A stretch of 11,889 nt of DNA from an uncultured Candidatus Saccharibacteria bacterium (GCA_964616385.1 CAZTTV010000017.1:1-11889), one strand, 5' to 3'; positions 1 to 11,500 are shown, numbered from the stretch's first letter. Translations and numbers: made by a program. The notes: generated by a model not told the origin, from the letters alone.

Positions 1-55
1 ACTAGAAATAAAACGTGAAATGCTAGCTAAAAAAGCGACTAAAAAGCGTAAGTAA
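1..55 (+). repeat. Direct-repeat copy A, exact 55-bp match to 2328..2382. It carries the 3' end of a lysine-rich reading frame (…KRLEIKREMLAKKATKKRK*) and is cut by the window edge, so it may be longer.
   Basis: Character-by-character identity of 1..55 with 2328..2382. Flanks diverge immediately after (gtcatcg vs tttttgt). Confidence 0.9.
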
Positions 56-77
56 GTCATCGCATACAATGCCCTGC

Positions 78-107
78 ACCCAAAATAACGAGGTTTGGGT
101 CATTTTG
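78..107 (+). terminator. Weak hairpin (acccaaa…tttgggt) followed by a cattttg T-run, downstream of repeat copy A.
   Basis: 7-bp inverted repeat plus T-run, seen directly. Confidence 0.3.
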
Positions 108-116
108 TTATAAAAT

Positions 117-150
117 AATCGTACACCACACTCGTGATGTACGATTTTTA
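117..150. terminator. Bidirectional intrinsic terminator: 9-bp stem aatcgtaca/tgtacgatt with a T-run on both strands. It terminates the 148..639 (-) gene.
   Basis: Perfect 9-bp inverted repeat with 12-nt loop, then ttttt. It overlaps the stop codon of the minus-strand ORF. Confidence 0.55.
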
Positions 151-639
151 TGCCTTAATATCTATTCTATTCCCTAACAGTGAGCGAGACCTTTCTAATT
201 CTTTATGTAACTCATCAAATAAAGTATCCGTTGTTTTGTTTGGGTCATAACCCGAACTTGGAGCTACCCTTACAATACTTTGAGCAAGTTTTTTCTTCTC
301 TTGAGGAATTGGTGCTTCTGATACTGAGCTAACGGCATTTAACAATGCGGTAACTCCAACCTTTAATCCATTATTTGATGCAGCAGGACCGTATACCGAC
401 AACGAACCAATCCCGTTTGTAGACGAGCCTCCCATAAATCCATACAAAGAACTCAAGGATCCTTGTCCAATACTTCCGGTATTAGCGCTATCAATAATGG
501 AGATTAGACTCGCATTCATTTCCTGCCCTGTCTGCTGTATCGCTCCGCTACCAAGAGCTCCCATAGAAATCTTGAGTGATGATCCTAATAAACCAACAAC
601 TGGATTTGCGAAAACAGGAGAAATAGCTCCAATCTTCAT
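148..639 (-). CDS. Hypothetical Gly/Ser/Asn/Gln-rich low-complexity protein, 163 aa. Paralog family member P1 with a hydrophobic Gly-rich N-terminus and a VGLLGSSL motif.
   Basis: ATG at 639 is preceded by AGGAGA with a 5-nt spacer. It has its own terminator downstream. The N-terminal motif is shared with the 737..1081 and 1103..1360 products. Confidence 0.7.
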   Translation of the reverse strand: MKIGAISPVFANPVVGLLGSSLKISMGALGSGAIQQTGQEMNASLISIIDSANTGSIGQGSLSSLYGFMGGSSTNGIGSLSVYGPAASNNGLKVGVTALLNAVSSVSEAPIPQEKKKLAQSIVRVAPSSGYDPNKTTDTLFDELHKELERSRSLLGNRIDIKA

Positions 640-690
640 AATATTCTCCTAATGTTCTATCTAGCTACATAATAACATTTATTTTACAAT

Positions 691-730
691 TAAAAAACTC
701 CGCAGTGGTATATAAATACACACTGCAGAG
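691..730 (-). terminator. Intrinsic terminator after the 737..1081 gene: 10-bp stem (one mismatch) ctctgcagtg/cactgcggag, 13-nt loop, then TTTTTTA on the minus strand.
   Basis: Inverted repeat 698..707 / 721..730. The complement of 691..697 is ttttta. Confidence 0.6.
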
Positions 731-736
731 GTTTAC

Positions 737-1081
737 TTAGACATACATATTAACGGAGCCAGATCCAGAGCTTGAACTGTGCCCAGTATTTACTGGGTCT
801 CTCGCTCCAGAAGCACCGACGGAGCTTGGATAAACGGGGCCAAGGGAAGTATCCGAGCCAGGCCACTTGTCTTCCAGGGCCATCGCACGAATTAAATTAA
901 TATCTTTTTCGACACCTTTACTTTTAGGATCATCCTCTGCGCGCAATGAACCTGGTGACAGACTACTAGCCAATAACTCCCCCACTTGGGGCGCCTTAGA
1001 TCGCAGATCGGCAAAATCACCAAGATTAAGCCGCAAGCCACTAGCACTACTTACACCGCCTACTGGAGCAATACTTGACAT
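737..1081 (-). CDS. Hypothetical Gly/Ser-rich protein, 114 aa. Paralog family member P2 with a VGELLASSLSPGS motif and a C-terminal Ser-rich tract HSSSSGSGS.
   Basis: ATG at 1081 is preceded by GAGGAGA with a 6-nt spacer. It lies 21 nt downstream of the previous gene's stop, which implies an operon. Confidence 0.7.
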   Translation of the reverse strand: MSSIAPVGGVSSASGLRLNLGDFADLRSKAPQVGELLASSLSPGSLRAEDDPKSKGVEKDINLIRAMALEDKWPGSDTSLGPVYPSSVGASGARDPVNTGHSSSSGSGSVNMYV

Positions 1082-1102
1082 AGATTATCTCCTCAATTAA
1101 TG

Positions 1103-1360
1103 TTAAGCAGTACTATCTAATTTAGTACCTTTTCCAACTTCTTTTGCACCTGCGTCAAGAACATCGGACAGTTTACCTACGGACATTTTTTGAGCATCTC
1201 CAGAAGCAGTAGCCACTTCTTTTTGCTTGAATTCATCAACCGCATTTTTTACCGCATTTGCCTCGCCTGCAACCACTTGAAGCTCTTTGGGGCTCAAACT
1301 ACTCGCTTGAGTTGCACCAAACCCACCAATAGCACCTACGGACATACCTGAATCAGACAT
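1103..1360 (-). CDS. Hypothetical Gly/Ala/Lys-rich protein, 85 aa. Paralog family member P3 with N-terminus MSDSGMSVGAIGGFGATQASSLSPKEL.
   Basis: The ATG at 1360 is preceded by GGAAGGTGA about 6 nt upstream. It is chosen over the track start at 1411, which lacks an SD. The ASSLSP motif is shared with P2. Confidence 0.65.
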   Translation of the reverse strand: MSDSGMSVGAIGGFGATQASSLSPKELQVVAGEANAVKNAVDEFKQKEVATASGDAQKMSVGKLSDVLDAGAKEVGKGTKLDSTA

Positions 1361-1470
1361 GATATTCACCTTCCATTTATTTGTATAAAAACTAATTTGT
1401 GCACCATGCACGACAACCTATACTAGGTATAACATAAACTATTTAAAAATCAAGTCTTCCCGTAAATATT

Positions 1471-1506
1471 AAAACCCCCTCTATTTTATTAAACTGAGGG
1501 GGTTTT
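1471..1506 (-). terminator. Intrinsic terminator after the 1505..1747 gene: 11-bp stem aaaaccccctc/gagggggtttt with a 14-nt loop.
   Basis: Perfect 11-bp inverted repeat with an A-tract on one arm and a T-tract on the other. Confidence 0.65.
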
Positions 1507-1747
1507 AGATGGCTATATTGATTCCTCTACCAATGCCAAATTCGGACATAACATTATTAACATACTCTACGACTTCTCTTTTTTTTTCTTTGGCATTTTT
1601 CTTAGCAAGAGTACCTCTTGCCTGACGTCCACCACCTTGCCCAGAATTTATCCCTGAGAGAAATTTCACTCTTGCATACGCTCTAGCAACGGCCATTCTT
1701 CTCGTCATACTTCCTTGATTCTCTCCAGTTAATTGTGAGATATTCAT
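1505..1747 (-). CDS. Hypothetical basic Gly-rich protein, 80 aa (…MTRRMAVARAYARVKF…GQGGGRQARG…KKNAKEKKRE…MSEFGIGRG). Its ATG sits 1 nt after the upstream gene's TGA (TGAtATG).
   Basis: ATG 1747..1745. A purine-rich AAAGAAAG lies upstream and the gene is translationally coupled to 1749..1925. Confidence 0.55.
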   Translation of the reverse strand: MNISQLTGENQGSMTRRMAVARAYARVKFLSGINSGQGGGRQARGTLAKKNAKEKKREVVEYVNNVMSEFGIGRGINIAI

Positions 1748-1748
1748 A

Positions 1749-1925
1749 TCACTTTCTTTCTGATATTACAATACGGGAGGAAGGGATACAGTCGTGATCA
1801 TTGAAATAACCCACGATTATTTTACAACTACAGATTCCGCAAAAATGAAGACTTCTAGAATTCGCACCAGCACCAACTAAAGGCAAGTATTCCTTAATCT
1901 TTTTCTTATCCGCTAAGTCTGACAT
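1749..1925 (-). CDS. Cys-rich small peptide, 58 aa: MSDLADKKKIKEYLPLVGAGANSRSLHFCGICSCKIIVGYFNDHDCIPSSRIVISERK. Possible leader-core architecture; a candidate bacteriocin/RiPP-like precursor or a small metal-binding peptide.
   Basis: The real start is the ATG at 1925, preceded by GGAGA with a 5-nt spacer. The track's GTG at 1970 has no RBS. The reverse complement was translated codon by codon. Confidence 0.6.
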   Translation of the reverse strand: MSDLADKKKIKEYLPLVGAGANSRSLHFCGICSCKIIVGYFNDHDCIPSSRIVISERK

Positions 1926-1968
1926 AATAATCTCCAATTCAAAAGATGTTTTATTTTTTCTATCTGTC

Positions 1969-1996
1969 ACTGTATCATATTAAATGTTTTTGTCAA
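1969..1996 (-). promoter_or_regulatory. Putative sigma70-type promoter for the Cys-peptide operon: TTGACA, 16 nt, then TGATACAGT (extended -10-like).
   Basis: Reverse complement of 1991..1996 is TTGACA, and of 1969..1977 is tgatacagt. Confidence 0.4.
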
Positions 1997-2261
1997 CCCA
2001 AATCGCTATATCTTAAAAACCATACTTTCTGTTAAATAAAGAACTCCAGATATAGAATGCCGTGGGTATCAAAGGAGTTTGTTGCCTCAGGTCAAACCTG
2101 AGACATGATTTAGGCGTTGAACATAAAAATCTTCTTGTGTTTATTTAAAATACAGTAACCTAAGTGTTTAGATGAGCACATATATTTGTCTATACCTACA
2201 AATAACAAACATCCTGTATATTATTTTGTAAACTATAATATAAATAGTGTATACTGTGGCA

Positions 2262-2382
2262 TATGGCAAAAAGAAGTACTGGAATAGAAAAAAATAAAAC
2301 ATCACGTTCAAAAAAGACAAAAAAACGACTAGAAATAAAACGTGAAATGCTAGCTAAAAAAGCGACTAAAAAGCGTAAGTAA
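2262..2382 (+). other. Tiny lysine-rich reading frame. ATG 2262 gives MAKRSTGNRKK* (11 aa). The +1 frame continues …GIEKNKTSRSKKTKKRLEIKREMLAKKATKKRK* to 2382. It is either a frameshifted or slippage-prone small basic protein gene, or a non-coding repeat. Its 3' 55 bp are duplicated at 1..55.
   Basis: Manual translation of both frames. TTGTAA-18-TATACT ends 7 nt before the ATG (a leaderless-type layout). The homopolymer aaaaaaa lies at 2288..2294. Confidence 0.3.
2328..2382 (+). repeat. Direct-repeat copy B, exact 55-bp match to 1..55.
   Basis: Exact identity with 1..55. Confidence 0.9.
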
Positions 2383-2404
2383 TTTTTGTATTAAATTGTT
2401 TGCT

Positions 2405-2432
2405 AAAAACCAAGAATATTCTTGGATTTTTT
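2405..2432. terminator. Bidirectional terminator: the palindrome ccaagaat|attcttgg flanked by aaaaa and tttttt.
   Basis: Perfect 16-bp palindrome with flanking A- and T-tracts. Confidence 0.6.
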
Positions 2433-2464
2433 CGTATAATTACATAGAAATAATTTTATAAGAT

Positions 2465-2493
2465 AAAACCGCTTACAATCGTAAGCGGTTTTA
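2465..2493. terminator. Bidirectional terminator: aaaaccgcttac-aatc-gtaagcggtttt. It terminates the 2500..2787 (-) gene.
   Basis: Perfect 9 to 12-bp inverted repeat with a 4-nt loop and A/T tracts on both sides. Confidence 0.65.
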
Positions 2494-2499
2494 GAAATT

Positions 2500-2787
2500 C
2501 TATTCTTTCCTGAGTGACTCATAGAAATCAACAATTTCTTTTAGACGCTCTTCGCCGATTTCGTTTTCCAAAACATCTAAGAAAGAACTCCCCATTTCTT
2601 CCTCTGCAAGAAGCTCTTCCATTAAAATATGTATGTTTGGTAAATTCTCGTCCCTAGATCCCTTGTTGGTTCTGCGTATTATGAGAAGTTCTCTAATGCA
2701 TAGATATACACCGACATCTGTCCTTTCATACTCTGACAAACCAAAATGTTTTGAAACAATCTCCATATGATCTTCGTTGCAACGCAT
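2500..2787 (-). CDS. Hypothetical acidic protein, about 95 aa (MRCNEDHMEIVSKHFGLSEYE…EEEMGSSFLDVLENEIGEERLKEIVDFYESLRKE).
   Basis: The ATG at 2787 is preceded by GAGGTG 4 to 5 nt upstream. The track start at 2799 is an in-frame ATG lying inside the SD. Confidence 0.55.
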   Translation of the reverse strand: MRCNEDHMEIVSKHFGLSEYERTDVGVYLCIRELLIIRRTNKGSRDENLPNIHILMEELLAEEEMGSSFLDVLENEIGEERLKEIVDFYESLRKE

Positions 2788-2967
2788 TATGCACCTCATT
2801 TTTTGTAATTTTTTATTATCAAATTACCCCAAAGGATAACTCACTTTCTAATATCTATCTTAGATTATCTCATAATACTGTGGTAATGTCAACAGTAACG
2901 TAGCGCACGTATATTAGAATATATAATATACTTTTTATATATTTTGTGTTATCGTATAACCAATATC

Positions 2968-2995
2968 AAATCTCCTCTTTGGTTGGAGATTTTTT
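2968..2995 (+). terminator. Plus-strand intrinsic terminator or attenuator: hairpin aaatctcc-tctttggtt-ggagattt then TTTTTG. It lies 42 nt upstream of the typA ATG with no plus-strand gene upstream.
   Basis: 8-bp perfect stem and T-tract. The complementary-strand flank is not T-rich, so it is plus-strand specific. Confidence 0.5.
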
Positions 2996-3036
2996 GTTTG
3001 AAGTATAAAACACTTAGATAATTTAAATTTATATTT

Positions 3037-4821
3037 ATGGAAATAAGGAACATAGCAATAATAGCTCATGTTGACCACGGGAAGACGACTCTTACCGATG
3101 CTATTTTGCGTCAAACTGGTGCTGTTGATAATAATACAAGCATGGACAGCGATGCCCTTGAACAAGAACGGGGTATAACCATATACTCAAAAAATGCTGC
3201 GACTGTATATAAAGACACAAAAATAAATATTGTTGATACACCAGGTCATGCAGATTTTGGTTCAGAGGTAGAGCGAGTATTGCGTTCAATTGACTCTGTA
3301 TTATTGATAGTTGATGCACAAGAAGGTCCGATGCCACAAACTCGTTTCGTTCTAAAGAAATCTCTTGATCTTGGTCTTCGTCCAATTTTAGTAATAAACA
3401 AAATAGACAAAGAAGCTGCTGATCATGTTAAGGTACACGATGAAGTATTTGATTTATTTTCAGAGCTAGGAGCAACAAACGAGCAGTTGGACTTCCCTGT
3501 TATTTATGCAATTGGAAGAGATGGCGTTGCAATGAAAAATATAGACGATGAAAAAAAAGACCTTACTCCACTTCTTGATTTAATTTTAGAACATGTACCA
3601 GTAGCGTCAGGAGACAAAGACGGTTCGTTCATCGCACAGCCTTTTAACCTTGCGTATGACAATTTTCTAGGAAGACTTGCTATCGTACGTATTCACGACG
3701 GAAGTATAAAATCAGGTGATAATATTTTTGTAAAAAAACAAGACGGAATTTCTAAACATAAAATAACAAAACTATTTACTTTTCATGGAACATCACGTGT
3801 TGATACAGATGAAATAATTGCTGGAGATATTGCAATCATTGCAGGACTTCCTGATGTATATATTGGAGATACACTATGCACAGATGAAAACACTGCTCTA
3901 CTTGAAGCTATTGCTGTTGACGAGCCAACTATTGAGCTTACATTTCTTGTAAACAACTCCCCTTTCGCAGGTCGTGAAGGAAAATTTGTAACAAGCAGAC
4001 AAATCCGTGAGCGTTTAGAAAAAGAACTTGAAGTAAATGTTGGATTACGTGTTAATTTTGATACAGGAGGTGGTGAACAATTCACAGTTTACGGACGTGG
4101 CGAACTACACATTGCGATTTTAATAGAAAATATGCGTAGAGAAGGATACGAACTTCAAATTTCACAACCAAAAGTTATCATGAAAGAAGTCGATGGAAAA
4201 AGACAAGAACCATTTGAAGAAATAACGATTGATGTTCCTGAAGAATTTCAAGGTACAGTGATTGAAGCATTGAATAAAAGAGGTGCTACTATGCTAAATC
4301 TTGAACTCCATGACACTCGTGCGCAAATGTTATTTGAAGGTCCAACACGTGGACTATTTGGATACAGAAGTGTATTTGTAATTGATACAAGAGGAGAAGG
4401 AATCTTTGCAACTCGTGTGACAGGATACAAACCATACGCAGGCGAAATAGAACGTCGTGATGCAGGTTCAATGATTTCACAAGTTACTGGCAAGACACTC
4501 GCCTTTTCACTCGCAAATCTTCAAACACGTGGAGTACTATATATTAAAGAAAATACTGAGGTTTACGAAGGTATGGTTATAGGAAATACATCCAAAGGAG
4601 AACAAATGACAGTAAACCCTACAAAAGGAAAACAACTTACCAACATGCGTGCATCTGGAAGTGATGAAGCTATTTCACTTACTCCTCCACAAATTGTTAC
4701 TATTGAAACTGGTCTTGAGATAATGGCGAAAGATGAGTATTTAGAAGTAACCCCAAAATCTGTACGTCTTAGAAAACAACATTTGACTGATAATGACCGA
4801 TCAAAAGCAAGAAGAAAATAA
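3037..4821 (+). CDS. typA: Translational GTPase TypA/BipA (594 aa).
   Basis: N-terminus [21 protein letters not shown] with G1-G5 GTPase motifs ([13 protein letters not shown]). Length and C-terminal domain are typical of the BipA family (established knowledge). No SD upstream. Confidence 0.95.
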
Positions 4822-4902: not shown

Positions 4903-6666
4903 CTATTGTTTATTGGATGCTGGCTTTGCATCCATTTGCATCACAACAGGAATACTTCTTTTTATTGCTTGGGTTAGTGTTGAATTACCTAATATCGCTG
5001 CTGCACCTTCCAATGTCCCACCGCCCTGAACACCACTAACATTTACATGTGGCACTTTGACAATATCAGGATTTTCAGCAGCAACTTTTAATGCTTCTTT
5101 AAGCATTTGTAGTTGCAATACACGATCTTGACCCAATACATCTACTTGGGCCTTTTGACCTTTTGCAATTTCGATTAGCTTTAGCTTCTCACCCTCACCT
5201 TCAAGTTTCAATCGGTCCTTTTTAAATGAGGCTGCTTTTTTTTCAATCTCTGCTTGAACTAAGATTGGCTGTTTGTCAGCTGTTGCTCGTTCACGTTCAG
5301 ACTTGATTCGCTCTTTTTGAGCTTTCTGCTCCTCTATGTATGTTTCCCTTAGTTGACTCGCAAGCTGCTGACGCAAGGTTGCGACCAGTAATTCCGGTGG
5401 AATTGCTGGTTCACCCATCCTAGCCTCTTGTATCGTAACACCTGCTTTTGCTCCTTCCGGGGCAATAGCCTCTTCTACTTGCGCAACGATTTCGTCTCGC
5501 TTTTCTATAAAATCCAATACCTTGCGATCCGGATGACCACCTATAGTTCGAAGAATGTCCCGAATTGCTGGCGTTACGATTTTATCTTCAACATCTTGCA
5601 GTGTGCCAACAGAAGCAACAACTTTCGGCGCATCGTTTGGATGTACTTGAACTAATACACGCATATCAACTGGAATTATCCAACCTTCAACACGTACATT
5701 AATTGCATGATCCGCGGCGCTTTTCGGTTGAACAATTTCGTATGGCTCCTCTGTTTGCTCAATCTTACCATCGTCTCCAACAGTTAAATTGATTTTACGA
5801 CTACTATACCCACCACGATATGTCCATGTTTGAACACGTGTTGGAATAATTGTAGGAACATATGCACGGTCGTTCAGATAATATTTCCCTGGGGACAAAG
5901 GCTCACTCCAAACACCGATACATCCTCTTGGTACAAGTGGCGCAGACAAATCCGAACCGGTCTTACCACTTTCGGATGTCATGAGTTTGCTATTGTCTGG
6001 ACAGTCTTCATCTGTTTGAACATTAGAACGTATCACTGCGACATGCCCGGTTGGCACATTTAGAGCTTTGCCAAGTTTAACTTCAAATAAATATTGGTTG
6101 ATACGATATTTACCGGGACGCAATACATCAAGTTGAGGTCCTTTCTGTCCTTTACCATCACCAAGAAAATACTTGGCATCCAACATTTTATCAAAATTGC
6201 TTTCTCCCCAAGCATCAGCTATAAACTGATTATTGCGTAGAGGTGAGCCATCTTTGGTAACAAGAAAACCCCATTTCCCACTGGGGATGTCTATTACTGG
6301 CAACTCTTCAATTTCATACAAGACACGAATAAATGGTCTGAAATGAAAACCTGGTCCAAGGATTTCAGCTTGTGGTCCTTTTTGTCCATATTGCGCAATA
6401 ATCTTTCCAGGTGGTAGAGTATCTCCCAAATAAATACGCTTCAGATGACCGACTTTATCCTGACCGATAACCACAAATGATGTACTCGCGAATAAAAATA
6501 AAGCGACCAAACCCATGGTTCCAGCCGTAACATATCGAAGCCATTCTAGTTTTATCTCAACATTTTCTCCTCTGGTATCACTCCACACCTTTCTCGTCTC
6601 TGGAATAAACCTTGGTGCAAAAACTGCAGCCAAGATTGCAAGAATACCTAATATAATTTGAAACAT
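4903..6666 (-). CDS. SPFH/band-7 flotillin-like membrane protein (YqiK/FloT type), about 587 aa. It has an N-terminal double hydrophobic segment, an SPFH domain, and a C-terminal Glu/Ala/Lys-rich coiled-coil.
   Basis: The start is reassigned to the ATG at 6666 (MFQIILGILAILAAVF…), preceded by AAGGAAG. The track start at 6729 adds 21 residues with no RBS. The SPFH-like region and the EA-rich coiled-coil tail are typical of flotillins. Confidence 0.75.
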   Translation of the reverse strand: MFQIILGILAILAAVFAPRFIPETRKVWSDTRGENVEIKLEWLRYVTAGTMGLVALFLFASTSFVVIGQDKVGHLKRIYLGDTLPPGKIIAQYGQKGPQAEILGPGFHFRPFIRVLYEIEELPVIDIPSGKWGFLVTKDGSPLRNNQFIADAWGESNFDKMLDAKYFLGDGKGQKGPQLDVLRPGKYRINQYLFEVKLGKALNVPTGHVAVIRSNVQTDEDCPDNSKLMTSESGKTGSDLSAPLVPRGCIGVWSEPLSPGKYYLNDRAYVPTIIPTRVQTWTYRGGYSSRKINLTVGDDGKIEQTEEPYEIVQPKSAADHAINVRVEGWIIPVDMRVLVQVHPNDAPKVVASVGTLQDVEDKIVTPAIRDILRTIGGHPDRKVLDFIEKRDEIVAQVEEAIAPEGAKAGVTIQEARMGEPAIPPELLVATLRQQLASQLRETYIEEQKAQKERIKSERERATADKQPILVQAEIEKKAASFKKDRLKLEGEGEKLKLIEIAKGQKAQVDVLGQDRVLQLQMLKEALKVAAENPDIVKVPHVNVSGVQGGGTLEGAAAILGNSTLTQAIKRSIPVVMQMDAKPASNKQ

Positions 6667-6924
6667 TTTTCTTCCTTTCTTTAGTTTGTTTTGTGAAATC
6701 ACAAAATTGCGATATCCACGACATAACATTCAGTTTTCAACGAGCCTATGATAAAAACATGTTTAATTTAAACACATTAACCTATCATAGCAATAAACAC
6801 TAACAATTTTTATGTATCTTGTCAATAGTAGTAATGTAAACAATTAAAAACTTCAGTTATTGCACTTTTATATAAATTTTATATTTATAAACAAAAATAT
6901 TCAAAAATCTGATACAATTTAAAT

Positions 6925-7725
6925 ATGAGGAAAATAAATAAATTAGTTGGAGAAATTCCAATACATATTGTTAGTATAAAGACCGATAGAAAAGAAATTT
7001 CTGGAAATATTGTTTTTATTCATATGTCTTGGGGTGGAGCTTGGGCATTTAATTTTTATATGAAATTTTTTGCGCAAAATGGATACACCTGTCATGCATT
7101 TGATTTACGTGGACATGGTGAAAGTGGCGGCACAGTAGAAGGTACTACTATGCAAGATTATGTAGATGATGTAAGAGATGTTGTTAAAAATCTAAATATA
7201 CAAAATCCAATAATTATTGGACATTCTATGGGCGGGCTAATCGCTTTAATGTATAGCGCACAATATGGTTCAAAAGCAACTATCTCAATCGATGGAAGTC
7301 CGAGTATTGAAGTACAAAAAGTAAGCGAAGAAAAAACATACCCACTGTCATATACACCCAAAGATTCTGGAATGCCTACAAATTTGATAAAAGCCATGAT
7401 GATGTTACCAGACATATATCTATGGAGACTTATGAAGATGAAGAAAATGCTTACTGTAGAATCTGGTATTGCACGAAGTGAAAGAAAGAAAGGGATATCT
7501 GTGCCAAAAGAAAAATTAACACAACCTTTACTTTTTGTAGGAGCTGAAAAAGGGACAACACTTCCATTTGGTATAGGGATAGAAAAAGTCCGCAAACAAG
7601 CAGAATACTATAACTCTCCTGTTGTAGAAATATTTGGAGCTACACATCCTGGACTACTTATGGGAAAATATTGGGAAAAATCTGCTAGTGTAATTTTTAA
7701 GTGGCTTAAAGAAAATAATATATAA
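6925..7725 (+). CDS. Alpha/beta-hydrolase fold serine hydrolase (lysophospholipase/esterase-like), 266 aa.
   Basis: Nucleophile elbow GHSMGG, an HG-type oxyanion region IVFIHMSWGG, and a C-terminal His (GATHPG). No SD. TGATACAAT ends 6 nt before the ATG. Confidence 0.8.
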   Translation: MRKINKLVGEIPIHIVSIKTDRKEISGNIVFIHMSWGGAWAFNFYMKFFAQNGYTCHAFDLRGHGESGGTVEGTTMQDYVDDVRDVVKNLNIQNPIIIGHSMGGLIALMYSAQYGSKATISIDGSPSIEVQKVSEEKTYPLSYTPKDSGMPTNLIKAMMMLPDIYLWRLMKMKKMLTVESGIARSERKKGISVPKEKLTQPLLFVGAEKGTTLPFGIGIEKVRKQAEYYNSPVVEIFGATHPGLLMGKYWEKSASVIFKWLKENNI

Positions 7726-7867: not shown

Positions 7868-8146
7868 CTATCTACTATTCCTGAAACAATCTATGCATTT
7901 TAAATTCCCTGTTTCTCTTGGCTCGAATGGTAGTTGTGATATTGTCGCACTACAGCTACCACATTTCCAATCTCCTTGAAACATTTTCTTTTGTGGGCTA
8001 TCTGACTTTTTTGATGCATGACAATCACGACAAAGTAACCCACTTGTATCTCTCGGTTCAAACGGTAATTCTGTTATATCTTTATTACAACCCGAACACT
8101 TCCAATTGCCTTGAAACATTTTTCTATCACTATTTTGTGAATCCAT
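7868..8146 (-). CDS. Small tandem C4 zinc-ribbon protein, 92 aa, with two copies of KMFQG(N/D)WKC(S/G)(G/S)C-x18-C-x-DC.
   Basis: Internal duplication at protein level and at DNA level (about 28-nt near-identical repeat starts). C-x2-C-x18-C-x2-C spacing resembles TraR/DksA-type C4 fingers, ending in CIDC. No SD, so the start (8146 vs 8119) is uncertain. Confidence 0.6.
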   Translation of the reverse strand: MDSQNSDRKMFQGNWKCSGCNKDITELPFEPRDTSGLLCRDCHASKKSDSPQKKMFQGDWKCGSCSATISQLPFEPRETGNLKCIDCFRNSR

Positions 8147-8263: not shown

Positions 8264-9430
8264 TTACAAATATGATATAACTTTATTCGCCATATCTTTT
8301 GTACCTAAAAGTTTTAAAGAATCATCTCCATCAGAAAATATATCTCCTGTACGATACCCTTCACGCAAAACACGCAAAACTGATTTCTCTATATCATCAG
8401 CACCTTCAATTGCACCGATGTGTCTGAGCATCATACCTGCTGTAAGAATTCTTCCAAGTGGATTTGCTATTCCCTGCCCAGCAATTGTTGGTGCAGTACC
8501 TGCTCCACTTTCAAACATAGCAGAACCCGTATCAGGATTTATAGCAGAACTACACATCATTCCCATACTTCCCAATGCGCTAGCTGCACCGTCTGACAAT
8601 ATATCGCCATGTTCATTACCACAAGCGATAACTCCATTAAGTTTTGCTGGTGTGAACAAAAGTGCATTAGCTGAATCTACAAGTTGATGTTTTAATTCAA
8701 CATCAGGAAATTCTTCCATCCCAATTTTTGTAGTAATCTTCCTCCAAAAATCATATCTTGCCATTACGTTAGCTTTATCGATTGAAATAAGCGGAAGATC
8801 CAACTTCTTGGCATAGCCAAAAGCAAAGCGTATATACTTTTCAATAGTCTCTTTTCTGTAATAAGCAACGTCAGTAACAATATATTCTTCTATAGAAACT
8901 TTATTTTTGAGCATTATACCGAGCATTGTTTTTGTATCATCATCGATAAAATCAACAAAGTCTGTATTCCCAAAATAGCTATCTTCCAGAAGAAGACGAA
9001 TCCAAATTTGTTTTATCCCTTTATCTGGTATTGTCCCAGGTTTAACATTTGCGAGACTATCAAGCACCTTGTAATAAGTCATTGGTCGAAAATTAAGCAA
9101 CAAACCCATAGTACTTCTAAGAGCAAGTAAGCATCTGGCTTCAGGCTTCATCTCTGGTTTTTCAATACCTATTGTATTGTCAAACTTAGGATCACCTACT
9201 CCACCAAAAAATATCGTACCGATTTCAACTGCTCTTTCAAAAGAACTCTTTGGAAGTGTGTCTCCAAATATTTCGTAAGCATTCCACCCCATAGGAGTAT
9301 CTTCAAAAACAATTTCCATACCATATTTCTCCGCAGCAATAATAGCAACGGAACAAGCAGCTTCCATCATTTCTGGACCAGAACCATCACCTTTTACTAA
9401 AGCAATGGTTTTCTTTCTATTAATTCCCAT
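8264..9430 (-). CDS. leuB: 3-isopropylmalate dehydrogenase family (isocitrate/isopropylmalate/homoisocitrate DH superfamily), 388 aa.
   Basis: Family motifs (…GNEHGDILSDGAASALGSMGM…). RBS GAAAGGA. It lies 15 nt downstream of the leuCD stop, so it is operonic. Confidence 0.75.
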   Translation of the reverse strand: MGINRKKTIALVKGDGSGPEMMEAACSVAIIAAEKYGMEIVFEDTPMGWNAYEIFGDTLPKSSFERAVEIGTIFFGGVGDPKFDNTIGIEKPEMKPEARCLLALRSTMGLLLNFRPMTYYKVLDSLANVKPGTIPDKGIKQIWIRLLLEDSYFGNTDFVDFIDDDTKTMLGIMLKNKVSIEEYIVTDVAYYRKETIEKYIRFAFGYAKKLDLPLISIDKANVMARYDFWRKITTKIGMEEFPDVELKHQLVDSANALLFTPAKLNGVIACGNEHGDILSDGAASALGSMGMMCSSAINPDTGSAMFESGAGTAPTIAGQGIANPLGRILTAGMMLRHIGAIEGADDIEKSVLRVLREGYRTGDIFSDGDDSLKLLGTKDMANKVISYL

Positions 9431-9445
9431 AAATATATCCTTTCT

Positions 9446-11389
9446 CTATAGAATTTTATGTTGTTTCTGTAATTCAGCTGCAATTTCAATCATTACATTA
9501 ACACTTCCATTATTTCTAATGAGCTCTTTTTGATAATCAGACAATCTAAACTCTATAAATATGTCTCCATTGCTGATTAGACCGTTCTCTATATCAATCG
9601 TCAGATTGCTGACACTTCCTAATTGCTCAATAGTGTTAGCTGGTAGTGTTATGCACAAAAGACCATTTGCGAACATATTATCTTCAAAAATACGTGCAAA
9701 ACTTGGTGCTATAATACATTTAGTACCAGCTCCTTCCAATGCCCATGGTGCATGCTCTCTTGATGACCCACAGCCAAAGTTCTCCCCAACTATAAGTATC
9801 TGAGATTCAAATAATCTCTGTCTCCCTTCTTTGTCAATGGAAGAATCTTCGAGACAATGTTCTCCAAATACTTTTTTATCAGTTTCTGTTAAATATTTTG
9901 CTGGTATTATCTGATCTGTATCAACATTGTCATCTTTCAAATGAAAAACTTTGCCAGAAAAATCTTTTTTACTTTCACTGCTAAACATTTTTAACAACTT
10001 AGAATAATCAGGGGTTGTAAACGGAACATCATTCCAATGAGTTGGTATGGATTTTGACACCTCACAACCAACCAAAGAACCTAGGCGCGCTCGCTTGCAC
10101 ATATCCTTATCTGGTTCTGTTATTACTCCAAAAATAGCAGACATAGCTGCTGTTGCAGGAGATACTAAATGCACAATTCCGCCCTTACCCATTCTTCCTG
10201 GGAAATTACGATTAGTTGTAGAAATACAAACCTCACCAGGGGCAAGAACACCACAACTCATACCAAGACAAGCACCACATGTAGGACCACTAACAAAACA
10301 TCCAGCTTTTACAAATGTCTGTATTAATCCTTCTGAAATAGCTTGCTCATATATATGTTGTGTGGCAGGAACTATAATACATCGAACAGAAGAATTTATT
10401 CTACCTCCCAAAATACGAATGACTTCTGCTGCTATTCTCAAATCTTCAATTCTTCCATTTGTGCAAGAACCAATATATATCTGATCAATTTTCTTGTCAG
10501 CAATACCAGATACATCAACAACACACTCGGGTGAATAATTGATAGTAGCTTTAGGACACATGTCTGACACATCAATTTCTATGACATCATTATATTCTGC
10601 ATTCAAATCACTATTAAAAGACAAAAATCTTTCAATATTAGAATCTACGTTTTCATGTCCAAGATATTTTATGATAGCTGGTTTTAAATAAGAAATCGTC
10701 TTTCCGTCAATTGGCATAATCCCTGATGTTGCTCCAGCTTCAACAACCATATTAGTGATTGTCATTCTACTTTCCATGGTCATTTCATTAATGACTGACC
10801 CACCAAATTCCAATACAGAGTTTGTCGCACCTTTTACACCAATTTTCCCAATAAGTGTCAAAATCAAATCTTTAGCAAATACATTTTCAGGCAACTCGCC
10901 TACAAAATTCACACGTATAACTTTTTGAGGTTGGCATATCCAAAGTCCTGTTATGATACCATTTTCTAGATCGGTAGAACCAACTCCTGCAGAAAAAGAA
11001 CCAAAGGCTCCATGTGTGCAAGTGTGGCTATCTCCCATAATTCCAACTTCTCCAGGGAGTATCCAACCCAATTCTGGTATGATCGCATGACACACGCCAT
11101 TTCGTCCTATATCTAGAAACTCTATTTTATGGCTATGGCTCCAATCTCTTATTATTTTACCCTGAACAGCAGATGCTGTATCTTTCGCAGGATTAACATG
11201 ATCTATCATTGCCTTAATCTTATTTGGATCAAAAACAACGTCACAATCGCGAGACTGTGCATCAATTATAGAAGGAGGAGTAGTAATCTCGTGACACCAC
11301 ACCCTATCAACTTTTAGCACCATTCTTCCGTCTTGTAGTGTTTTTACAACATGTTTAGAGATTATTTTCTCATACATATTTCTAGCCAT
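9446..11389 (-). CDS. leuCD: Fused 3-isopropylmalate dehydratase: large-subunit (LeuC, aconitase-family, small archaeal type) plus small-subunit (LeuD) in one polypeptide, about 647 aa.
   Basis: N-terminal part has aconitase-family Cys ligands (…GSCTNGRIEDL…, …CGACLGM…). C-terminal part matches LeuD (…NVDTDQIIPAKYL…GENFGCGSSREHAPWAL…SFARIFEDN…). Start is reassigned to the ATG at 11389 (MARNMYEKIISKH) behind AGGAGAAAAAAATG. The track's TTG start at 11500 is the -35 box. Confidence 0.8.
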   Translation of the reverse strand: MARNMYEKIISKHVVKTLQDGRMVLKVDRVWCHEITTPPSIIDAQSRDCDVVFDPNKIKAMIDHVNPAKDTASAVQGKIIRDWSHSHKIEFLDIGRNGVCHAIIPELGWILPGEVGIMGDSHTCTHGAFGSFSAGVGSTDLENGIITGLWICQPQKVIRVNFVGELPENVFAKDLILTLIGKIGVKGATNSVLEFGGSVINEMTMESRMTITNMVVEAGATSGIMPIDGKTISYLKPAIIKYLGHENVDSNIERFLSFNSDLNAEYNDVIEIDVSDMCPKATINYSPECVVDVSGIADKKIDQIYIGSCTNGRIEDLRIAAEVIRILGGRINSSVRCIIVPATQHIYEQAISEGLIQTFVKAGCFVSGPTCGACLGMSCGVLAPGEVCISTTNRNFPGRMGKGGIVHLVSPATAAMSAIFGVITEPDKDMCKRARLGSLVGCEVSKSIPTHWNDVPFTTPDYSKLLKMFSSESKKDFSGKVFHLKDDNVDTDQIIPAKYLTETDKKVFGEHCLEDSSIDKEGRQRLFESQILIVGENFGCGSSREHAPWALEGAGTKCIIAPSFARIFEDNMFANGLLCITLPANTIEQLGSVSNLTIDIENGLISNGDIFIEFRLSDYQKELIRNNGSVNVMIEIAAELQKQHKIL

Positions 11390-11471
11390 TTTTTTCTCCT
11401 TTTTTGTATATGATTCTAAAACTTTTATCAATGAACAAAAACAGCTACGCCGTTTAAGCTTTCTAATAGCC

Positions 11472-11500
11472 ACATTACATAAAATATACTGTTTGGTCAA
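11472..11500 (-). promoter_or_regulatory. Putative leuCD promoter: TTGACC, 17 nt, then TAATGT.
   Basis: Reverse complement of 11495..11500 is ttgacc, and of 11472..11477 is taatgt. The spacer is 17 nt. Confidence 0.45.

What the first reader, a model, noticed from the sequence alone, without database searches (positions are those of the whole stretch)
1..2382. Exact 55-bp direct repeats bracket a 2.27-kb cassette of five same-strand small genes
1..55 and 2328..2382 are 100% identical. Both are the 3' end (through the TAA) of a tiny lysine-rich frame, and the flanks diverge immediately. All five CDSs between them are on the minus strand in three compact, individually terminated transcription units. 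They encode non-housekeeping low-complexity or Cys-rich products. This looks like an accessory cassette inserted into or next to a duplicated small gene (att-like duplication or tandem paralog), yet no recombinase is visible. Copy A is cut by the window edge, so the repeat may be longer.
Basis: seen in the sequence. Interest (0 to 1): 0.7.

Follow-up and report, generated by a model that had tools for sequence, protein, structure and literature searches.

The report
Duplicated tiny gene flanking small-gene islet
A very conserved 39-codon gene of an uncultured Patescibacteria (CPR) bacterium appears twice, on either side of five small genes of unknown function, but the "exactly 55 bp" length comes from the contig starting inside the repeat, so this is an ordinary small duplication or islet rather than a new mobile element.

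Summary
The 55-bp exact repeat (1-55 = 2328-2382) is real and far beyond chance. However, the window is a complete 11,889-bp contig, so copy A sits at a contig end, and 55 nt is a common assembler k-mer size. The true repeat is therefore at least 55 nt. Two contigs from another assembly of the same population overlap by exactly 101 nt ending at 2382, which suggests at least 101 nt, nearly the whole 120-nt gene.

The repeated gene (sg) belongs to a family of at least 1,130 clusters. It is single-copy on every other contig seen and lies upstream of typA in four lineages. The nearest relatives have one sg and no cassette at this site.

The cassette is not random cargo. Three of its genes have homologues in the same order at another locus (uvrC-secG) in other CPR genomes. 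Otherwise the families are extremely rare, and no function could be assigned.

No recombinase lies in the cassette. A 937-bp IS481/IS3-like element is insertion-polymorphic 510 bp to the right in a 100%-identical strain.

Best reading: sg is duplicated around a lineage-specific islet, probably by homology-driven recombination. A loop created by mixed strains in the assembly cannot be excluded without reads. Interest is low to moderate.

The parts
1..55 (+). Copy A of the small gene (sg): last 18 codons plus TAA, cut by the contig end. Identical to 2328-2382.
   Evidence: The window is a whole contig. The junction into 56 onward is confirmed by Logan contig L001, which stops 30 nt into the repeat, as expected for k=31.
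117..146 (.). 13-bp-stem hairpin with T-runs on both sides. It is the terminator of c163 (minus strand) and is usable for sg copy A (plus strand).
   Evidence: -18.2 kcal/mol, z -5.4.
148..639 (-). c163: a 163-aa Gly/Ser-rich ORFan, possibly a distant paralogue of c114, transcribed as its own unit.
   Evidence: Its only hit among 5.8 billion proteins is itself. No Pfam, NCBIfam or PHROG match. Weak similarity to the L022 118-aa protein (E=0.007). The strain variant keeps the frame despite a 9-nt indel.
698..730 (-). Terminator hairpin of the c85-c114 unit.
   Evidence: -20.3 kcal/mol, z -5.7, followed by UUUUUU.
737..1081 (-). c114: a 114-aa Ser/Gly-rich protein from a very rare family.
   Evidence: only P0008 (91% identity), P0135 (42%) and P0136 (37%) were found. 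Homologous to the L022 118-aa protein (E=2e-18) and the L023 111-aa protein (E=1e-16). The AlphaFold2 model has low confidence (pLDDT 51).
1103..1360 (-). c85: an 85-aa protein, first gene of the second pair.
   Evidence: with the Shine-Dalgarno sequence GGAAGGTG seen. Homologous to the L022 98-aa protein (E=9e-6) and the L023 93/120-aa protein (E=2e-5).
1470..1507 (-). Terminator hairpin of the c58-c80 unit.
   Evidence: -20.3 kcal/mol, z -4.5.
1505..1747 (-). c80: an 80-aa basic protein whose start lies next to the c58 stop (likely translationally coupled).
   Evidence: Homologous to the L022 96-aa protein (E=3e-4, same N-terminus MNIS/TxLTGE).
1749..1925 (-). c58: a 58-aa protein with four Cys, first gene of the first pair. 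A promoter-like site lies at 1996-1969.
   Evidence: A Cys-rich 60-aa gene occupies the same position in L022, but alignment with it is not significant.
2226..2255 (+). sg promoter. The extended -10 box (TGTATACT here, TGTATAAT in relatives) ends 7 nt before the ATG and there is no Shine-Dalgarno sequence, so the mRNA is probably leaderless.
   Evidence: for the promoter match, for conservation across five loci, and for L011 and L012.
2263..2382 (+). Complete sg copy B: a 39-aa protein with net charge +15. Its last 55 nt form the repeat. This is the ancestral position, upstream of typA.
   Evidence: Strain S2 contig L019 and contigs L002 and L017 confirm the context.
2410..2425 (.). Small hairpin with T-runs on both sides, between sg copy B and p99.
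   Evidence: z -2.4.
2500..2799 (-). p99: an acidic 99-aa ORF lying between sg and typA. It is absent from relative L004, so it is part of the variable sg-typA interval.
2893..2897 (.). Empty target site (CAGTA) of a ~937-bp IS481/IS3-like insertion sequence that is present in an otherwise identical strain.
   Evidence: L017 gives the left junction (identity through 2897) and L003 the right junction (identity from 2893). The transposase C-terminus matches IS3/IS481 and rve models. Terminal inverted repeats are shown.

Best explanation
The window is a whole metagenomic contig from a Patescibacteria (CPR, Parcubacteria-like) population.

The repeated gene. A strongly conserved, normally single-copy 39-aa basic-protein gene (sg) has its ancestral place just upstream of typA. 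Here it is present as two identical direct copies. Between them lies a 2.27-kb lineage-specific islet. The islet holds two conserved but very rare small-gene pairs (c58-c80 and c85-c114) plus one extra gene (c163). Each unit has its own promoter and terminator.

Why 55 bp. Because the two sg copies are identical, the assembler collapsed them. The contig therefore starts with one k-mer's worth (55 nt) of the upstream copy. The real repeat is longer, probably the whole gene.

How it arose. The most likely origin is homology-driven recombination using sg itself as the homologous segment. This could be Campbell-type integration of DNA carrying the islet plus an sg copy, or unequal crossing-over. 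The region turns over quickly: the sg-typA interval holds different genes in each lineage, and an active IS sits 0.5 kb away.

Shown versus inferred.
- Shown: both right-hand junctions, the single-copy and no-cassette state in relatives, module homology elsewhere, and the IS polymorphism.
- Inferred: that both copies lie in one genome, the full extent of the repeat, and the recombination route.
- Unknown: the function of the five products. They look like short, largely disordered Gly/Ser-rich proteins with shared end motifs, evolving fast between strains.
For: - Repeat at a contig end. The repeat is exact and begins at base 1 of a complete contig.
- Breaks in independent assemblies. Logan contig L001 (k=31) ends 30 nt into the repeat. 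NCBI contig L002 ends exactly at 2382.
- Evidence for a longer repeat. L002 and L017 come from the same assembly and overlap by exactly 101 nt (2282-2382), ending at the divergence point. A graph branch there requires both continuations to share that 101-mer.
- The loop is covered by identical contigs. L001 (26-938), L002 (1642-2382) and L017 (2282-2897) are each 100% identical to the window. L006 (1389-1858) is 99.6% identical. A second strain (L007, L019) shows the same gene order.
- sg distribution. sg is single-copy on all 14 other loci. It belongs to a family of at least 1,130 clusters, and typA lies downstream in four lineages with different intervening genes.
- Cassette distribution. 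There is no cassette at this site in L004/L005 or L009/L010. Cassette genes are homologous and syntenic with modules next to secG in L022 and L023, with no sg nearby.
- No recombinase domain in the cassette.
Against: - Copy A is only 55 nt at a contig end. Whether it is a complete gene, and whether it lies in the same genome as copy B, cannot be seen.
- The sample holds at least two or three closely related strains (95.8-99.9% identity). Graph paths can therefore be chimeric.
- Window 1239-1388 is not covered by any independent contig.
- The k=101 inference rests on one contig pair, and the assembler is not known to me.
- No contig showing what lies upstream of copy A was found.
- The recombination route is pure inference.
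Confidence: 0.55

Rival explanations
1. Assembly loop from mixed strains. Each genome has one sg. Different strains carry different DNA after the sg stop codon, and the assembler threaded them into one path. On this reading the bracketed cassette is an artefact of graph traversal.
For: - The repeat sits at a contig end and has a typical k-mer length.
- Several strains coexist.
- The position just after the sg stop is demonstrably variable between lineages.
- L017 shows that a path can leave a repeat (the IS) into a different flank.
- Window 1239-1388 lacks independent cover.
Against: - With one sg per genome, the chain sg->56..->..2262->sg closes into a circle. To avoid that, a chimeric join inside 56-2262 is needed.
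- Contigs that are 99.6-100% identical cover 26-938 and 1389-2897, and strain S2 covers 152-1238 in the same order.
- That leaves only about 150 nt (1239-1388) where a false join could hide, and no sequence discontinuity is seen there.
Confidence: 0.2
2. Site-specific integration. The 3' end of sg is an attB-like target, as the 3' ends of tRNA or tmRNA genes are for genomic islands. The cassette would be a small integrated element whose integrase acts in trans or lies beyond the contig end.
For: - A direct repeat formed by the 3' end of a highly conserved small gene, ending at the stop codon.
- Empty site in relatives.
- Different cargo begins 8 nt after the sg stop in L009 and L010.
Against: - No integrase or recombinase lies in the 2.27 kb.
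- The complete gene, with its conserved promoter, is the copy next to the native downstream flank. That is the reverse of the usual 3'-end-targeting layout unless both copies are complete.
- The repeat is probably at least 101 nt, far longer than a typical core site.
- sg is not found on viral contigs.
- Homologous modules elsewhere are not flanked by sg.
Confidence: 0.1
3. A 2,327-bp unit (cassette plus sg) that exists as a tandem amplification or as a small circular molecule sharing sg with the chromosome. This would give a cycle-with-tail ('lollipop') assembly graph.
For: The contig has the form X-A-X-B, which is exactly a cycle plus a tail. No entry edge into the cycle was found in any collection.
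Against: - The unit has no replication or mobilisation gene.
- Contigs under 1 kb are missing from the scanned collection, so failure to find an entry edge is weak evidence (one search lacks the 741-bp L002).
- The Logan contig runs through position 56 without a branch. That argues against an entry point at the start of the cassette.
Confidence: 0.07
4. IS-mediated rearrangement. The multicopy IS481/IS3-like element of this population moved or duplicated the segment.
For: An active, multicopy IS is inserted 510 bp right of copy B in a 100%-identical strain. It has a 4-5-bp target duplication and at least two different right flanks.
Against: No IS ends or remnants occur at or near 56, 2327 or 2382; only chance 10-12-mers match. 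The repeat is gene sequence and not IS sequence.
Confidence: 0.08

Closest known systems
Genomic islets flanked by a duplicated conserved gene or gene end (for example islands at tRNA or tmRNA 3' ends; Campbell-type integration by homologous recombination)
   Same: Direct repeats made of the end of a small, highly conserved gene flank lineage-specific genes. Relatives have a single copy and an empty site.
   Different: No integrase is present. The complete copy lies next to the native downstream flank. The repeat probably spans nearly the whole gene. The cargo is a conserved chromosomal module and not phage or ICE genes.
De Bruijn-graph contig-end overlaps (contigs that start or end with one k-mer of a collapsed repeat; 55 is the usual largest default k of SPAdes/metaSPAdes, from my own knowledge)
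   Same: The repeat begins at contig base 1 and is exactly 55 nt. Other assemblies break at the same boundaries, with overlaps of 30 and 101 nt.
   Different: The underlying branch is real. Two different sequences follow the gene in the reads of independent assemblies.
IS481/IS3-family insertion sequences
   Same: The neighbouring polymorphic element encodes a ~300-aa DDE (rve) transposase. It has ~27-bp imperfect terminal inverted repeats and a 4-5-bp target duplication.
   Different: It lies outside the repeat-bracketed segment and does not flank it. At about 937 bp it is unusually compact.
Ribosomal protein bL32 (the label JGI gives two sg family members)
   Same: Short and very basic. The N-terminal K-x-S-R-S-K-K-x-K-K-R stretch recalls the bL32 N-terminus (my recollection).
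   Different: No Pfam or NCBIfam match and no match to any PDB chain with a family profile. It has no zinc-ribbon part and is only 39 aa.
Integron gene cassettes
   Same: Several small same-strand genes of unknown function in a compact array.
   Different: Each unit here has its own promoter and terminator. No intI is present, and attC-like sites were not looked for. The genes are syntenic with a chromosomal module elsewhere.

Membership tests
Integrase-mediated integrated element (att-flanked island) | Direct repeats (attL/attR) at both ends | tested here: inconclusive
   An exact repeat of at least 55 nt is present. Its left limit is the contig end, and it is probably at least 101 nt.
Integrase-mediated integrated element (att-flanked island) | Tyrosine or serine recombinase gene inside the element, next to an att site | tested here: not met
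   None of the five products matches a recombinase in Pfam, NCBIfam or PHROGs. DNA left of copy A is not available.
Integrase-mediated integrated element (att-flanked island) | Empty site with one att copy in related genomes | tested here: met
   L004/L005 and L009/L010 have one sg and no cassette. These are different species (~82% nucleotide identity). No same-species empty site was found.
Segmental or tandem gene duplication (two complete paralogues) | Both copies complete, with start codon and promoter | not testable with these tools
   Copy A is cut at the contig end. The 101-nt overlap of L002 and L017 implies at least 101 of 120 nt are shared.
Assembly-graph repeat collapsed at a contig end | Repeat lies at a contig terminus and its visible length equals an assembler k | tested here: met
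   The window is a whole contig and the repeat starts at base 1 and is 55 nt long. That 55 is a default SPAdes k is my own knowledge. The assembler used for this contig is unknown.
Assembly-graph repeat collapsed at a contig end | Independent assemblies break at the same repeat boundaries | tested here: met
   L001 ends 30 nt into the repeat, L002 ends at 2382, and L017 starts at 2282.
Composite transposon / IS-flanked segment | IS copies or IS ends at both boundaries | tested here: not met
   BLAST of the 937-bp IS against the window gives only 10-12-nt chance matches.
IS481/IS3-family insertion sequence (the neighbouring element in L017 and L003) | DDE (rve) transposase, terminal inverted repeats, short target duplication | tested here: met
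   The C-terminal 23 aa match positions 346-368/369 of transpos_IS3 and 261-283/284 of transpos_IS481 (E=2-4e-4), and also rve_2 and rve_3. A ~300-aa ORF is present. The inverted repeats share AGCTTGGAACCA. CAGTA is present on both sides. The full-length transposase was not itself scanned.
Ribosomal protein bL32 (for sg) | Match to the Ribosomal_L32p model or to bL32 chains in solved ribosomes | tested here: not met
   No Pfam hit for eight family members at E up to 10. No NCBIfam hit. No PDB chain matches the family profile at E up to 10.
YjfB-like 'putative motility protein' (PF14070), a lead from memory for the cassette proteins' end motifs | Match to the Pfam model | tested here: not met
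   No hit for ten module proteins at E up to 10. HMMER's filters may drop very weak matches.

The most novel reading that the evidence does not exclude
The ultra-conserved 39-aa gene acts as a portable recombination anchor in Patescibacteria. Because its sequence is nearly the same across lineages, DNA carrying an sg copy can integrate next to the resident sg without a dedicated recombinase. This would leave sg duplications that bracket captured small-gene modules, and it would explain why the DNA just after the sg stop codon differs in every lineage. A related version is that the 2.3-kb unit cycles between an integrated and a circular form.
Probability: 0.1. Interest if true: 0.6.

Novelty: new member of a known kind. 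Interest (0 to 1): 0.27.

Why it matters
The finding has modest value if true. It would be one documented case of how reduced CPR genomes gain and shuffle small strain-specific gene modules, here through a duplicated conserved gene and next to an active IS.

The by-products may be more useful than the repeat itself:
- a very widespread, unannotated 39-aa basic protein with a likely leaderless promoter;
- a rare, fast-evolving small-protein module with shared end motifs.

For genome-scan practice, it shows that an exact repeat starting at base 1 of a contig, with a length equal to a common k, should first be read as an assembly boundary.

Tried and rejected
- Function of the products. Pfam, NCBIfam and PHROGs scans of all cassette products, sg and p99 found nothing above noise. 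The only near-hits were c85 against a CTB-bacteriocin model (E=0.058) and against MxiM (E=0.029).
- Other sequence features. Rfam on 1-3100 gave nothing credible, and no tRNA was found.
- Cassette protein families. c163 is an ORFan among 5.8 billion proteins. A profile search of the c114 family added no members beyond three.
- Structure. AlphaFold2 on the c114 family gave pLDDT 51, so no fold search was done.
- sg as bL32. Not supported.
- YjfB-like idea. Not supported, and the literature search was unhelpful.
A genome-collection scan and a metagenome scan found no contig that extends left of copy A. The window's own contig is not in those collections.
- Failed look-ups. SPFH, p99 and c85 returned nothing, probably because of different start-codon calls.
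- Viral contigs. sg is absent from them.
- Source and assembler. A literature search for the run and assembly accessions gave nothing, so the assemblers and k values are unknown.
- Foreign-origin argument from GC. Rejected. The cassette has GC 38.6% against 35.9% for the rest, and GC3 0.26-0.37 against 0.19-0.28. SPFH (GC3 0.28) and p99 (0.38) overlap that range.
- L002 as the whole collapsed repeat (1642-2382). Considered. Its left end could equally be a strain SNP, so this was left open.
Full report
**1. The observation**

Positions 1-55 and 2328-2382 are identical. About 3e-24 such pairs are expected by chance in this window. Both are the last 18 codons plus TAA of a 39-aa Lys/Arg-rich frame. 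Only the second copy is complete (2263-2382). The sequences diverge at the first base after TAA.

Five minus-strand genes lie between the copies: c163 (148-639), c114 (737-1081), c85 (1103-1360), c80 (1505-1747) and c58 (1749-1925). Four have good Shine-Dalgarno sequences. They form three units, each closed by a strong hairpin plus T-run. The hairpins fold at -18 to -20 kcal/mol with z-scores of -4.5 to -5.7. So the description is correct.

**2. What '55 bp' means**

The longest contig carrying these exact proteins is 11,889 bp, which is the window length. Base 1 is therefore a contig end, and the repeat starts exactly there. A repeat that begins at a contig's first base and is 55 nt long is what a de Bruijn assembler leaves when a contig path starts at a repeat node. 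That 55 is the usual largest default k of SPAdes/metaSPAdes is my own knowledge, and the assembler used here is unknown.

Other assemblies of the same population break at the same node:
- Logan contig L001 (k=31) equals window 26-938 and stops 30 nt into the repeat.
- NCBI contig L002 equals 1642-2382 and stops at the last base of the repeat.
- L017, from the same assembly as L002, starts at 2282 and runs through the repeat into the typA side.

L002 and L017 overlap by exactly 101 nt, ending at the known divergence point. If that overlap is the graph node, both continuations share at least 101 nt. The repeat would then cover at least 101 of the gene's 120 nt.

**3. Is the two-copy structure real?**

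Both right-hand junctions are independently confirmed: X->56 onward by L001, and X->2383 onward by L017 and L019. The path around the loop is covered as follows:
- 100%-identical contigs: L001 (26-938), L002 (1642-2382), L017 (2282-2897).
- A 99.6%-identical contig: L006 (1389-1858).
- A second strain, S2, in the same order: L007/L008 (152-1238, 95.8%) and L019 (1874-2978, 98.4%).

Only 1239-1388 lacks independent cover. With one sg per genome these links would close into a 2,327-bp circle. Two copies in one genome is therefore the simplest reading. However, the sample contains several strains, and no contig showing what lies left of copy A could be found. A chimeric path, a tandem array or a circle cannot be excluded without reads.

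**4. The repeated gene**

sg is not an odd little ORF. A profile of eight divergent members finds at least 1,130 clusters at 90% identity, nearly all 39 aa. Hits in named genomes include a Candidatus Zambryskibacteria MAG and another CPR MAG. In that eight-member alignment, 26 of the 40 columns are invariant.

An extended -10 box (TGTATAAT) ends 6-7 nt before the ATG in all loci, and there is no Shine-Dalgarno sequence. This suggests a leaderless mRNA.

JGI labels two members 'ribosomal protein L32'. Pfam, NCBIfam and a profile search of all PDB chains give no support for that label.

sg is single-copy on all 14 other loci. typA lies downstream in four lineages, with different DNA in between:
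- 180 nt in L004;
- p99 in the window;
- a 363-aa gene and a GH130-type gene in L009;
- a 154-aa membrane-protein-like gene (opposite strand) and a helicase-like gene in L018.

Copy B is therefore the ancestral position, and the stretch after the sg stop codon is a variable spot.

**5. The cassette**

The closest relatives (L004/L005 at ~82% nucleotide identity with typA 92% aa identity; L009/L010) have no cassette at this site. It is therefore lineage-specific here.

It is not anonymous cargo, though. A full HMMER scan of 1.8 billion representatives found two distant relatives of c114. In L022 these sit in a four-gene module of 60 aa (Cys-rich), 96, 98 and 118 aa, with the same order, gene coupling and two-operon layout. 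There, c114 matches the 118-aa protein (E=2e-18), c85 the 98-aa protein (E=9e-6) and c80 the 96-aa protein (E=3e-4). That module lies between uvrC and secG, with no sg nearby. L023 has only the second pair, again upstream of secG.

The families are otherwise extremely rare. The proteins share N-terminal M-x-I-S-x-I-S-G-like and C-terminal G-x-G-x-x-[LIV]-[DN]-[ILV]-x-[AVT]-like ends. No library gives a function. The AlphaFold2 model is mostly disordered.

Between the two strains, 25 of the 46 differing alignment columns (SNPs plus a 9-nt indel) fall in c114, giving 10 amino-acid changes in 114 residues. c163 keeps its frame across the 9-nt indel. These are real, fast-evolving genes. GC and GC3 are only mildly raised and overlap neighbouring genes.

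**6. Mobile DNA nearby**

The cassette contains no recombinase. However, a strain that is 100% identical over 2282-2897 carries a ~937-bp element at 2893-2897. Its features are:
- a ~300-aa ORF whose C-terminus matches IS3/IS481 transposases and rve domains;
- ~27-bp imperfect terminal inverted repeats;
- CAGTA duplicated on both sides.

The window has the empty site. L017 leaves the IS into a different flank than L003 does, so the IS is multicopy. No IS ends occur at the cassette boundaries.

**7. Explanation**

Most likely (about 0.55), sg is duplicated around a lineage-specific islet, and the assembler collapsed the identical copies. The route I favour is homology-driven recombination through sg, either Campbell-type integration or unequal crossing-over. 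That route is inferred, not shown.

Rivals are:
- a strain-mixture graph loop (0.2);
- integrase-mediated integration at the sg 3' end (0.1);
- IS-mediated rearrangement (0.08);
- a circular or amplified 2.3-kb unit (0.07).

Read mapping or long reads would settle the matter.

**8. Verdict**

This is a new instance of a known kind of event, of low to moderate interest. The conserved 39-aa gene, the rare small-protein module and the compact polymorphic IS are worth noting as side findings.

Noticed in passing
window 2226-2382; L004 9976-10120; L009 673-814; L011 2085-2226; L012 (minus) 1149-1290: The 39-aa basic protein (net charge +15) belongs to a family of at least 1,130 clusters at 90% identity, with 26 invariant alignment columns among eight divergent members. 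It has a conserved TGTATAAT box 6-7 nt before the ATG and no Shine-Dalgarno sequence, so it is probably leaderless. It is essentially unannotated. Two members are labelled L32 by JGI, which Pfam, NCBIfam and PDB searches do not support. It may be an unrecognised ribosome- or nucleoid-associated protein of CPR bacteria.
   Followed up: partly
window 2893-2897; L017 (reverse complement) 617-1553; L003 1-95: A compact (~937 bp) IS481/IS3-like insertion sequence is present in an otherwise identical strain and absent from the window. It has a 4-5-bp target duplication (CAGTA), ~27-bp imperfect inverted repeats sharing AGCTTGGAACCA, and at least two different right flanks in the population.
   Followed up: partly
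window 148-1747 (minus); L022 6128-7528; L023 443-1190: The cassette proteins and their homologues share short N-terminal (M-x-I-S-x-I-S-G-like) and C-terminal (G-x-G-x-x-[LIV]-[DN]-[ILV]-x-[AVT]) motifs across otherwise dissimilar, Gly/Ser-rich sequences. This hints at a common processing, secretion or assembly signal. The module sits upstream of secG in two other genomes.
   Followed up: partly
window 862-1066 and 269-299 versus L007: Differences between the two strains cluster tightly. There are 25 substitutions in c114, giving 10 amino-acid changes, nine of them between residues 40 and 74. There is also a 9-nt in-frame indel in c163. Long stretches between these are identical. The pattern suggests recombination or diversifying selection.
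   Followed up: partly
window-equivalent position 152 (ends of L007 and L008): Two assemblies of the same reads (NCBI VAPK and Logan k=31) both end the S2-strain cassette contig at the same base, one nucleotide past the c163 stop codon. This may mark another branch point (alternative left flank) in that strain.
   Followed up: no
window 4903-7725 and 8264-11500 versus L004 12198-13533: L004 has the gene order typA, zinc-finger gene, cold-shock gene. Relative to that, the window carries extra blocks. An SPFH/Band-7 protein plus an alpha/beta hydrolase replaces two small ORFs. leuB plus a fused leuC-leuD (684 aa) is inserted between the zinc-finger and cold-shock genes. Leucine-biosynthesis genes seem unusual for a CPR genome (my own knowledge).
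   Followed up: no
window 7868-8146 (minus); direct repeat D1 7910-7987 / 8045-8122: A 92-aa protein made of two tandem CxxC-x17-CxxC treble-clef zinc-finger repeats (Pfam zf_Tbcl_2, E=1e-12). The internal 78-nt repeat at 71% identity reflects this duplication. The gene is conserved in the relatives.
   Followed up: no
window 2500-2799 (minus): An acidic 99-aa ORF (net charge -10) lies between sg and typA. It has no family match, is absent from L004, and carries many substitutions between strains S1 and S2.
   Followed up: no
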